This document shows, piece after piece, positions 18,001-21,000 of a DNA stretch of 21,255 nt. The stretch is taken from NCBI GenBank assembly GCA_964010765.1, contig CAXGMD010000061.1:1-21255 (forward strand), given 5' to 3'. The DNA is from an uncultured bacterium. Its GTDB lineage: Bacteria; SAR324; NAC60-12. Made by a program: the position numbers. Within the stretch, counting starts at the first letter, position 1, and each line of letters begins with the position of its first letter.

Positions 18001-21000
18001 TCCCTTCCCTGAAAGCGCTGAGATGGCTACCTCCGTCACTTGTGAAATGCCCGTTCACATAACTAAAATTTGTTTCTCCATATAGATCGGTGTGTGTTAG
18101 GGAATATTCGAGCAAGTCGGCTTGTACATGTAGAATTTCATAAAGTGCCTTTTCACCCACCTCTTTTTCCAACATTTCCTGCAAGCCTCGCTCGGCTTTG
18201 AATTTCTCACCATTGAAAATGAGGCTCAAACCACGATTTAAGTAGGCATAATTCCAAAGCTGTTTCTCAATCAGTCTGAAATCAAACTGGAATCTTGAAA
18301 AGATAGATTCGTCAGGGACAAAGCGAACTACGGTTCCATTCCGTTCTTTTGAAGTTGTACGACCTTCATCAACCAATTCGCCTTGAATGAACTTCGCAAA
18401 TGCCTTTTTTCCATCACGAACAGAACTGACTTCGAAACTCTCTGAAAGCGCATTCACCGCTTTAGTTCCAACACCATTCAGACCGACACTGAACTGGAAA
18501 ACATCACTATTGTATTTTGCCCCGGTGTTAATGCTGGAAACACATTCCACTAATTTTCCTAGGGGGATACCCCTTCCGTAGTCACGAACTTTTACTTCCG
18601 TTTCTTTTAGATTGATTTCTATACGCTTGCCATGGCCCATGATGTATTCATCAACTGAATTATCAATCAATTCCTTGAGGAGTATGTAAATGCCGTCACT
18701 GGATTGTGAGCCATTGCCTAATCGACCAATGTACATTCCAGGTCTTTTACGAATATGCTCCAGTGATGAGAGGGTGATGATTTTGGCTTCGTCGTATTGA
18801 ACGGGTTTAGTTTCCATTTCAAAGAACTCAAGTATTAGGATTTTGGGTCTTTCTGAGTTTGCCAGAGAATGGGGATTCTATTCCCCATGAGACAGAAGTT
18901 GGACCTGGCTTGATGGAGATTTGCAAGATGCTCATCTGTGGATCACAGATTGAACTCATCGGGATCATGATTGGACTAGTTGTCTATGAATTCAGATTCA
19001 CAGTTGTTCTACTCTCTCAAAGAGATCATTTTTGAAATAAAATTTGAATTAACTTGTTATTCACTCAAGTCGATTCTTTCTGATGTACATCAAAATCCCA
19101 TAAGATTCATTTTAATCAAATTTTCATTGCACCTGTAAGGACAGACCTATCCAAGTTGATCTTCAGTCGTAATTAAAACTGTCTTTCAAAATAGGCAAAA
19201 AAGTAGAAAACTGCCTCTGGAATTTGGCCAAATTTTATCAAAGGGGACGGGAAAAATCAGAATGAATAATCATTCTGGTGAAGGGAAAGTTTTAGGGGGC
19301 TGATTTTATGTATTGGAATTTTAGAATCTAGTTTTCTTAGCGTATTTTGCCAAAAGAGAATTGAAATGAAGCTGCCTCTCCGAGAACTGTGAGAGAGCGA
19401 TTGATTTCTTAGATTGAACCAGTTTTAAAACCTAAATCATTCAAATTAAACAAGGTTTCTTCCGATGCTTGAGAAGTCGGCAGTACTTGGTTATTTGAAG
19501 AATTGATTCCTTTTCGAATCGCAATCACTTGACGCCGATAAACATCATCAATCTCCATACTCTTTTGGGCATTCTTCAGAGCATTGTGAATCGTTGAATG
19601 ACTACGGCCCAAAAACTGGCCAATTTGACTCAATGACATCCCGAAATCTTCTGTCAGAATGTAGACAATGTATTGACGCCCTTTTATTACTCTCTGATCT
19701 CTCCTGCCAGACTTGATATCTTTCAAACTCAAGCGCAGTGCATTGCAGACATGCTGAATAACGTCTTCTTCAGATCTATCAAATGTGGGTGTTAGGTTCC
19801 CAGGAGATGACTGGTCTTCAATACTGATTTCTTTAGCACTGGGTATTAATTTTTTGGCTAGTGCTAAAGAAATTTTCTCGCCCATGAGTGATGAGTGTGC
19901 ACCCAAACGGATTAAGACCCCCTCCAACTGACATATATTCGGTGGTAAGTTACTAATTAAATAGTTGCAAATCTCATCACTCAACTCGATTCGTGAATCT
20001 TTTGCTTTACTCTGAAGGATCTGAAGGCAGGATTTGCGATCTGGAGATGGTAAATCTAGTGAAAGCCCAGATTCCAATTTATTGGCGAGAGTGGAGTTGA
20101 GCCCTGAGATTCTGCTGGGTAAATTGTTAGCAGAAAGGATCACCTGTTTGCCAGATTCCTTGAGGCTGCTTATGGTATGTTTCAGTTCCTGCTGACATTG
20201 TGGTGAACTACTCAATACTTGGACATCTTCCAAGATCAAAATATCTGTATTCCTGAATTTCTCTCGGAATTGCACCATCTGATTGCTGCGAATATCTTGA
20301 ATGAACTGATTCAAGAAATTCTCAGCATTTAGCATCATCAGTTTATTTTCGGGATGCTCTTTCAGCCACTCCTCAGCAAGTGCTTGGAGCAAATAACTTT
20401 TCCCTGTTCCCTCGTTCCCGTAAATGAGAAATGGGTTAAAGCTTTTAGCAGGATTTATCAGGACCTGCTCTACGGCTTTAAAAGCTAATTGATTAAATTC
20501 ACAGATTACAAAGTTCTTGAATCGTCGAGATTCGAGATTCCCAATTACACTTGCAGGATTGGCATCCTTGTCGGTAACAGACTCTGTTGAATCTTTTAAT
20601 TGAAAATCTTCGGCTTCTTGATTTTCGAAAAGAAATTCTTCCTGAATAGCTAAGTTTGATGTTCCTTTAGAACCCACCAGATATTCAAATCTCTTTCGGG
20701 AAAATGTACCAAATTCAGGGTAGGAGTCTGCAAGTGCAGATCTGAGATGGTCCTCGTGATTATTCTTAATATCCAGTCGATGAAGTTCGTGGGGGATTCC
20801 AGCGAAGACAACCTTTGTAGAGGTAATTTTCACCAGCAGCAGGGCATCCAACCAATTTGATCCACATCCTGAAGGAAGCAATTCCCTCAGCCTAGATTTG
20901 CAGATTTTCCATCGGTTGTTGTCAAGATCCATCTTTTACTCATGCATCCAAGTCCAATTGGATATCCTAATTGCCCCACCGAACTCCCCCAGAGTCCGTA

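What a model noticed while it worked through the whole genome (the two positions that open the first line are those of the whole stretch)
19409..20932. Sole DnaA has lost its ATP-sensing residues (sensor I, Arg finger, sensor II)
The only DnaA (g02431) keeps Walker A/B and the DNA-binding domain, but sensor-I Asp is Asn, box-VII Arg and the Arg finger are Thr and Lys, and sensor-II Arg is Cys. The erosion is family-wide and the gene has left the dnaA-dnaN locus, so initiation in NAC60-12 is unlikely to follow the ATP/ADP-DnaA switch.
Evidence so far: One strong DnaA per genome. Alignment to solved DnaA 8btg shows SDRPP>ANNLP, RLRSRF>TLANKL, NIRELEG>NICQLEG. Of 31 distinct family sequences 0 keep sensor-I D, 1 the R281 equivalent, 15 the finger, 5 the sensor-II R; 7 of 7 from families f3/f7 keep all four. 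dnaN is adjacent in f3/f7 and most f2 loci, in none of the family loci examined. Roles of D269, R281, R285, R334 from PMC4245941 (passages, call 219).
(Added by a program. Inside this text positions count along the whole contig: contig position 1 is position 1 of the stretch shown here. "Call 12" and the like, gene names such as g00115 and contig names such as C1 are that model's own, and its searches are not shown. The text may have been shortened before it was handed on; [...] marks where a part breaks off. The agent that wrote the report below was given it as the finding of a first reader that could run no searches.)

Follow-up and report, generated by a model that had tools for sequence, protein, structure and literature searches.

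The report
Replication initiator missing its ATP sensors
The only gene for the protein that starts chromosome copying in this marine bacterium has replaced the residues other bacteria use to sense and burn ATP, yet it keeps its DNA-gripping parts and the genome keeps a clear origin, so copying probably starts at the usual place but is timed without the textbook ATP switch.

Summary
Confirmed. In 36 family sequences D269, R281, R285 and R334 are kept in 0, 1, 19 and 6; 14 lack all four. In 120 other DnaAs they are kept in 118-120. New: the protein is almost surely still the initiator. It keeps the DnaA-trio capture residues and is under purifying selection. A unique origin stayed upstream of dnaN: nine perfect variant boxes (TTWTCGACA) plus trios. 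GC skew flips there in 8 of 10 family genomes sampled. Best reading (0.5): it binds nucleotide but cannot tell ATP from ADP, like E. coli R285A on the engineered all-ADP origin. Rivals: ATP-needing but hydrolysis-dead (0.25); switch rewired through Lys285 and basic 335 (0.15). Caveats: position 285 stays basic in 32 of 36; sensor I and box VII losses are viable in B. subtilis; nothing is biochemically tested. The helicase loader DciA appears enlarged in the same family. The scan noted similar DnaAs before in two other lineages (not checked here).

The parts
19409..20932 (-). dnaA orthologue, 507 aa, domains I-IV, sole copy in the genome
   Evidence: model pLDDT 84.8, domain III 1.6 A rmsd to 8bv3
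20396..20419 (-). Walker A loop G172-S179, intact (K178 in 35 of 35 family sequences that cover it)
20252..20323 (-). Initiator-specific motif with the trio-capture residues E204, N208, I211, I214, N217, R223 and AID1 R227, all kept (E249 lies just downstream in the protein)
20225..20230 (-). Walker B acidic pair, E235-D236 (canonical D-D)
20126..20128 (-). Sensor I position, Asn269 (canonical Asp)
20090..20092 (-). Box VII position, Thr281 (canonical Arg)
20078..20080 (-). Arginine-finger position, Lys285 (canonical Arg)
19928..19933 (-). Sensor II position Cys334 (canonical Arg) and Gln335; no basic residue at either
19574..19768 (-). Domain IV helix-turn-helix. Equivalents of R399, R407, R432 and H434 kept; D433>S, T435>S, H439>N changed, in step with a variant box
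20946..20960 (-). Conserved 15-nt leader motif (CAAWYGGANKTGRAW) about 25 nt before the start codon; candidate control element
   Evidence: 24 of 33 family loci with upstream DNA, 0 of 40 others; motif defined from these same loci
20866..21061 (.). 10-bp inverted repeat (20866-20875 and 21052-21061) enclosing the leader and start codon; possible translational control
   Evidence: (z -2.4); not chosen in the three-sequence consensus fold

Best explanation
This DnaA is still the chromosomal initiator but no longer works as an ATP/ADP switch. SHOWN by sequence: it is the sole DnaA; the P-loop, trio-capture pocket, most filament contacts and the helix-turn-helix are kept under purifying selection; the gamma-phosphate sensing residues are replaced; a single origin with identical strong boxes and trios lies upstream of dnaN and skew flips there. 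INFERRED: domain IV loads on the variant TTWTCGACA boxes. Protomers then line up on the trios through R223/R227/L290/R342 and base-capture contacts, whichever nucleotide is bound, melt the DNA and recruit DnaB with the enlarged DciA. Timing would come from the amount of DnaA (translation control in the leader, titration, turnover) and slow single-round growth rather than from hydrolysis. The timing step is the weakest inference.
For: All four residues are lost in 14 of 36 family sequences, and in 0 of 120 background DnaAs, 117 of which keep all four (after moving two SAR324-like rows out). Trio residues named in PMC10721633 are kept: R202 36/36, E228 36/36, N187 33/36. dN/dS in domain III is 0.024-0.14 in 11 family pairs. 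Origin: 9 perfect boxes in 350 bp on contig C50, next best cluster 2; the only box-plus-(CTA)3 in the genome; at most 1 box in 300 shuffles. Skew turns negative to positive there in 8 of 10 genomes, five of them with all four residues lost. Precedent: H. pylori, S. elongatus and D. radiodurans DnaA unwind with ADP; E. coli R285A and DnaA46 fire oriC-allADP in vivo.
Against: Position 285 is basic in 32 of 36 and position 334 or 335 is basic in 32 of 36, so selection for a positive charge persists. Walker A Lys is invariant. The three ADP-competent DnaAs still needed the Arg finger. D248A, R260A, K157A, D214A and D215A are each scored viable in B. subtilis, so part of the erosion may be neutral. 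Box abundance does not track the losses well: basal genera g3-g8 and g10 have few boxes of this type. The single-contig genome G020 shows no skew pattern in a 20-window sample. No biochemistry.
Confidence: 0.5

Rival explanations
1. Locked-on initiator: ATP is still needed for the filament, with Lys285 acting as the finger, but hydrolysis is dead and nucleotide exchange is loose. The protein stays mostly ATP-bound or follows the cell's ATP/ADP ratio.
For: Arg/Lys at 285 in 32 of 36; K178 invariant. In E. coli R334 serves hydrolysis and is dispensable for initiation complexes; D269 gives stable nucleotide binding. No Hda in the phylum.
Against: Position 285 is Leu, Gln or Ile in 4 of 36, and Walker B D236 is lost in 8 of 36. 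R and K alternate along the tree. R313A is lethal in B. subtilis.
Confidence: 0.25
2. Rewired switch: a basic residue at 335 replaces sensor II and Lys285 replaces the finger, so an ATP/ADP cycle survives.
For: E335 is R/K in 32 of 36; Lys335 is already present in the 6 sequences that keep R334, so it could have taken over.
Against: This genus has C/T334 with Q335 in 4 of 4, so no substitute in the window's protein. Basic 335 together with R334 also occurs in canonical DnaAs (9 of 122 rows are R/K at 335; T. maritima).
Confidence: 0.15
3. DnaA is no longer the initiator (a DNA-binding regulator only) and replication starts independently of it.
For: The gene has moved; dN/dS is several-fold higher than in family f7 (0.007-0.019); K222, R264 and R313 equivalents, lethal in B. 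subtilis, are changed; G020 lacks a skew pattern.
Against: Trios and boxes are retained at dnaN (CTA run of 3 or more in 20 of 39 family loci). Skew flips there. Trio-capture residues are better kept than in the background (R202 36/36 against 83/120). RNase H is present. PMC8287927 expects trios to be lost where DnaA is bypassed.
Confidence: 0.07
4. A canonical DnaA exists but was missed in the assemblies, or the substitutions are errors.
For: G000 is 92% complete; G004 carries a second, canonical DnaA (499.7 bits).
Against: 75 of the 76 phylum genomes with a strong match have exactly one, including single-contig G020, G049 and G050. dnaN's upstream neighbour in G000 is a racemase-like gene. 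Near-identical DNA occurs in runs of several studies.
Confidence: 0.03

Closest known systems
Canonical DnaA with the basal unwinding system (B. subtilis, PDB 8btg; TIGR00362)
   Same: Four domains, fold (1.6 A in domain III), P-loop, trio-capture pocket, tandem box plus trios upstream of dnaN; 20 of 37 alanine-lethal domain III residues identical, 28 identical or similar
   Different: Finger Lys, sensor II Cys, sensor I Asn, box VII Thr, K222>S; score 292.5 below the 343.9 cut-off; background DnaAs average 27.8 of the 37 identical; box is TTWTCGACA; gene detached from the origin
DnaA of H. pylori, S. elongatus, D. radiodurans (PMC8287927)
   Same: Box- and trio-dependent unwinding that works with ADP, the behaviour proposed here
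   Different: They keep and require the arginine finger
E. coli DnaA(R285A) or DnaA46 on engineered oriC-allADP (PMC6158602)
   Same: Initiation without finger-ATP contact when origin sites bind regardless of nucleotide
   Different: Engineered, over-initiates, still has SeqA and Hda; here natural and family-wide
Hda
   Same: Initiator-clade AAA+ fold
   Different: Hda lacks domains I and IV (own knowledge); score 98 against cut-off 194.8
Earlier scan notes e1-4359826 (Calditrichota) and e1-6970348
   Same: Sole DnaA reported without the sensing arginines
   Different: Other lineages; unchecked AI notes, not tested here

Membership tests
DnaA (orthologue, TIGR00362) | Domains I-IV with initiator-clade AAA+ and C-terminal HTH | tested here: met
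   PF00308 and PF08299 above cut-off; TIGR00362 match spans the model; folded domain I in the model; fold search
DnaA (orthologue, TIGR00362) | Score above the curated equivalog cut-off | tested here: not met
   292.5 against 343.9
DnaA (orthologue, TIGR00362) | Single copy with a cognate origin of boxes and trios | tested here: met
   binding itself untested
ATP-switched DnaA | Walker A GxxGxGK[T/S] | tested here: met
ATP-switched DnaA | Walker B Asp-Asp | tested here: inconclusive
   Glu-Asp here; D235 is in 120 of 120 background sequences; conservative change
ATP-switched DnaA | Sensor I Asp269 and box VII Arg281 | tested here: not met
   Asn, Thr
ATP-switched DnaA | Arginine finger Arg285 | tested here: not met
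   Lys; could still act as a finger
ATP-switched DnaA | Sensor II Arg334 | tested here: not met
   Cys, with Gln at 335
ATP-switched DnaA | ATP-specific oligomerisation and ATPase | not testable with these tools
   needs purified protein
Basal unwinding system | Box within 16 bp of three or more trios | tested here: met
   C50 boxes 13486-13505 next to five trios at 13469-13483; definition
Basal unwinding system | Base-capture residues N187, I190, I193, R202, E228 | tested here: met
   5 of 5 identical
Basal unwinding system | Backbone contact K222 | tested here: not met
   Ser243; 1 of 36 in the family
Hda | No domain IV; equivalog score | tested here: not met

The most novel reading that the evidence does not exclude
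A widespread marine bacterial family has, step by step, abandoned the DnaA ATP/ADP switch altogether. It runs a natural nucleotide-blind initiator on a natural 'all-ADP' origin with its own box sequence, with a doubled DciA for helicase loading and once-per-cycle timing set by DnaA synthesis.
Probability: 0.4. Interest if true: 0.87.

Novelty: new variant of a known kind. Interest (0 to 1): 0.72.

Why it matters
Whether ATP binding by DnaA is needed for the mechanics of origin opening or only for timing is an open question, so far probed with engineered E. coli origins and in vitro assays. Here a natural initiator, its predicted origin and a graded series of relatives (all four residues, two, none) are identified together. 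The published strand-separation assay can be run on them directly. A model paper (PMC10246017, abstract only) says the active/inactive conversion mainly suppresses instability under multifork replication; a lineage without it would test that.

Tried and rejected
Canonical TTWTNCACA clusters in G000: best cluster 3 boxes, none at dnaN or dnaA. Boxes or trios beside the relocated dnaA: at most 1 box and no (CTA)3 within 500 bp in 37 family loci, so no split origin or clear autoregulation. Hda loss as the cause: Hda is also absent from families that keep all four residues. Methylation control through the TCGA core: TCGA occurs at expectation (30660 against 31308) and the box itself is not enriched genome-wide, so no sign of titration sites; g2 boxes lack TCGA. 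IHF-like sites (consensus recalled): 20 of 37 loci, none in G000, overlapping the box sequence, uninformative. Loose box-plus-trio pattern over 64 genomes: fewer hits than its control. Skew in G020: no pattern; G016: 8 of 10 windows fit. Rfam on the dnaA flanks: nothing near a gathering score. YabA: not found. RNA contigs cover dnaA in three studies but also intergenic DNA in one, so expression is not shown. bioRxiv 2022.03.18.484894: terms not found. No complex prediction was run, since a DnaA filament would pass by likeness to 8btg. The careful tree did not finish; the quick tree was used.

Full report
THE GENE. The window is contig C61 of G000 (3.86 Mb, 92% complete). ORF 19409-20932(-) encodes 507 aa with PF00308 and PF08299 above cut-off. 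TIGR00362 scores 292.5 against a cut-off of 343.9. It is the only DnaA in the genome. The alignment to B. subtilis DnaA has no gap over domain III, and an AlphaFold model matches that domain at 1.6 A, so residue matching is safe. With tool-fetched E. coli DnaA: K178, S179, E235, D236, N269, T281, K285, C334, Q335.

HOW FAR THE EROSION GOES. Of 88 phylum genomes, 76 have a strong match and 75 of these have one. I aligned 36 family (f1), 16 sister-family (f2) and 24 other sequences. Left out: a fragment in G037, and the second, canonical DnaA of G004, taken as a likely contaminant but not tested. The odd G075 sequence is and dropped. D269, R281, R285 and R334 are kept in 0, 1, 19 and 6 of 36 in f1; in 6, 0, 16 and 16 of 16 in f2; and in 23, 23, 24 and 24 of 24 outside the order. 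Fourteen f1 sequences lack all four. As background I took the 150 best representatives, dropped 11 longer than 620 aa and 19 SAR324-like, leaving 120. These keep the four in 118, 120, 120 and 119. This sample is the top of a ranking, not a census, so divergent DnaAs elsewhere are not covered. On a quick DnaN tree of 56 genomes (genus g5 absent, f7 thinned to 5) the losses look stepwise: R281 and K243 at the base of the order, D269 with a gain of Lys335 at the base of f1, R334 in the 26-member clade that holds G000 (26 of 26), while position 285 alternates between Arg and Lys.

SELECTION. dN/dS in domain III is 0.024-0.14 in 11 f1 pairs and 0.007-0.019 in the 3 of 5 f7 pairs that could be computed. 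Between f1 genera domain III is 42% identical and DnaN 61%; in f7 74% and 55%. So the gene is needed but relaxed, and the relaxation is specific to DnaA. It is not confined to the ATP site: of 54 positions at least 90% conserved in the background, 25 fall below 80% in f1, including F239, K243, F251, F254 and F286.

WHAT IS KEPT. The B. subtilis structure names E183, N187, I190, I193, N196, R202 and E228 as trio contacts. All seven are identical here; R202, E228, R206 and R321 are in 36 of 36 family sequences. Against the B. subtilis alanine scan (supplement) the protein has 20 of 37 lethal domain III positions identical and 28 identical or similar; background mean 27.8 and 32.6. In that scan R264A and R313A are lethal, but D248A, R260A and the Walker A and B residues are scored viable. 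This lowers the weight of the sensor I and box VII changes and raises that of the finger and sensor II. Domain IV keeps R399, R407, R432 and H434 in 36 of 36 but has T435S in 35 and H439 in 1.

THE ORIGIN STAYED AT dnaN. dnaN-recF-gyrB lies on C50, preceded by a racemase-like gene. The 328-bp gap holds nine perfect TTWTCGACA boxes; the last tandem pair abuts five trios (CTA CTA CTA CGA CTA) just before the dnaN start. The next best cluster in the genome has 2, and it is the only box-plus-(CTA)3. The box was defined from this region, so the count is descriptive; shuffles give at most 1 (300 trials). The one CGA trio has C in the middle of the bound strand, which PMC10721633 found tolerated. Genus g2 has a CAACA-type box. 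A run of three or more CTA lies within 48 nt of dnaN in 20 of 39 family loci with upstream DNA; basal genera have trios but few boxes. GC skew turns from negative to positive across this point in G000, G014, G026, G028, G029, G038, G041 and G043. G029 is the clearest (5 of 5 windows each side, and at fourfold sites for both gene orientations). In G000 the genes flanking the element are on one strand, so gene direction does not explain the flip. G000, G038 and G043 rest on one window a side. G016 fits in 8 of 10 windows; G020 shows no pattern. Across 60 G000 contigs the fourfold skews of the two strands are anticorrelated (r -0.73), as for a fixed origin.

MECHANISM. Shown: sole, selected DnaA; DNA-contact residues kept; sensing residues replaced; origin retained. 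Inferred: it opens that origin without reading the gamma-phosphate. Two precedents make this plausible: three Gram-negative DnaAs unwind with ADP, though they need the finger, and E. coli R285A initiates from oriC-allADP. Nine identical boxes resemble such an origin. Against: a basic residue persists at 285 in 32 of 36 and at 334 or 335 in 32 of 36. For the window's protein no substitute sensor II exists, but Lys285 might serve as finger. I give 0.5 to nucleotide-blind, 0.25 to ATP-needing but hydrolysis-dead, 0.15 to a rewired switch, 0.07 to not an initiator and 0.03 to artefact. No Hda was found in 88 genomes, including those with canonical DnaA, so its absence is not the cause.

CO-CHANGES. 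PF05258 (DciA) scores well in 18 of 19 f2 and 19 of 19 f7 genomes but only weakly in 10 of 44 f1. The weak hits are 350-390 aa proteins; G000's is C10:42782-43774, found in 39 of 45 family genomes. It aligns to short DciA with a 70-residue insertion (probability 90); the Atlas gives DciA at 0.90 and the model hits DciA 7ykm at E 0.049, rank 20. A second DciA-like repeat is suggested by the alignment and two double hits. R281 aids helicase loading in E. coli, so a link is conceivable but untested. A leader motif and possible RNA structure precede dnaA.

LITERATURE. Seen: PMC8287927 parts 2-4 of 5 and a supplement search; PMC10721633 passages and supplement file 3 parts 1-2 (one scanned file unreadable); PMC6158602 abstract, first part of one results section and discussion; passages of PMC5742627, PMC6669920, PMC4245941 and PMC9031357; abstract of PMC10246017. 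Searches for SAR324 with DnaA or origin and for natural DnaAs lacking these residues found no description; subscription journals are not covered. The scan's notes list two similar cases in other lineages, unchecked.

VERDICT. A real feature. A DnaA orthologue that works like an initiator but fails the tests for an ATP-switched DnaA: a new variant of a known kind. Interest 0.72.

Noticed in passing
G000:C50:13460-13787 (L066 10460-10788), outside the window: Predicted oriC: nine perfect TTWTCGACA boxes and five trios before dnaN; a 25-bp box-bearing module is repeated at both ends.
   Followed up: yes
G000:C10:42782-43774(-) (L195 4782-5774): Enlarged DciA-like protein (331 aa) with an insertion and a probable second domain, family-wide; 110-170 aa in other families.
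   Followed up: partly
window 20730-21135: RNA contigs over the dnaA leader and first codons have depth 300-2400 in three studies against about 10-80 over the gene. Contigs cannot show level or strand; could be a leader or small RNA.
   Followed up: partly
window 20946-20960(-): 15-nt leader motif in 24 of 33 family loci, resembling the gene's own first codons; it holds an upstream ATG/TTG in varying frames.
   Followed up: partly
window 21073-21255: An 85% identical copy lies at the end of contig C116 (8628-8813).
   Followed up: no
G020 (L005, L112, L129-L148): Genus g3 has Walker B D236R, finger Leu, few origin boxes and no skew pattern in a 20-window sample; many DnaA-C-terminal-like hits on other ORFs. 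Possibly the most decayed case.
   Followed up: partly
G049, G050 (L071, L072): 1.6-1.7 Mb single-contig f2 genomes have the weakest DnaAs (about 205 bits), with changed trio residues and no clear trios before dnaN.
   Followed up: no
G004:C69 (L002); G075:C213 (L057): DnaAs unlike their hosts' relatives: canonical in G004, partly eroded in G075; probable contamination or transfer.
   Followed up: no
window 1059-3008 and 17015-18817: Topoisomerase IV A (PRK09631 type, above cut-off) and a B-like subunit on the same contig, 14 kb apart.
   Followed up: no
family f7 loci, e.g. L036-L051: Trio arrays run directly into the dnaN start codon; R342 and R432 are replaced in this otherwise canonical group.
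   Followed up: no
upstream of dnaN in genera g2, g9, g11: A conserved TTGGGTTTT element in the middle of the origin, absent in g1.
   Followed up: no
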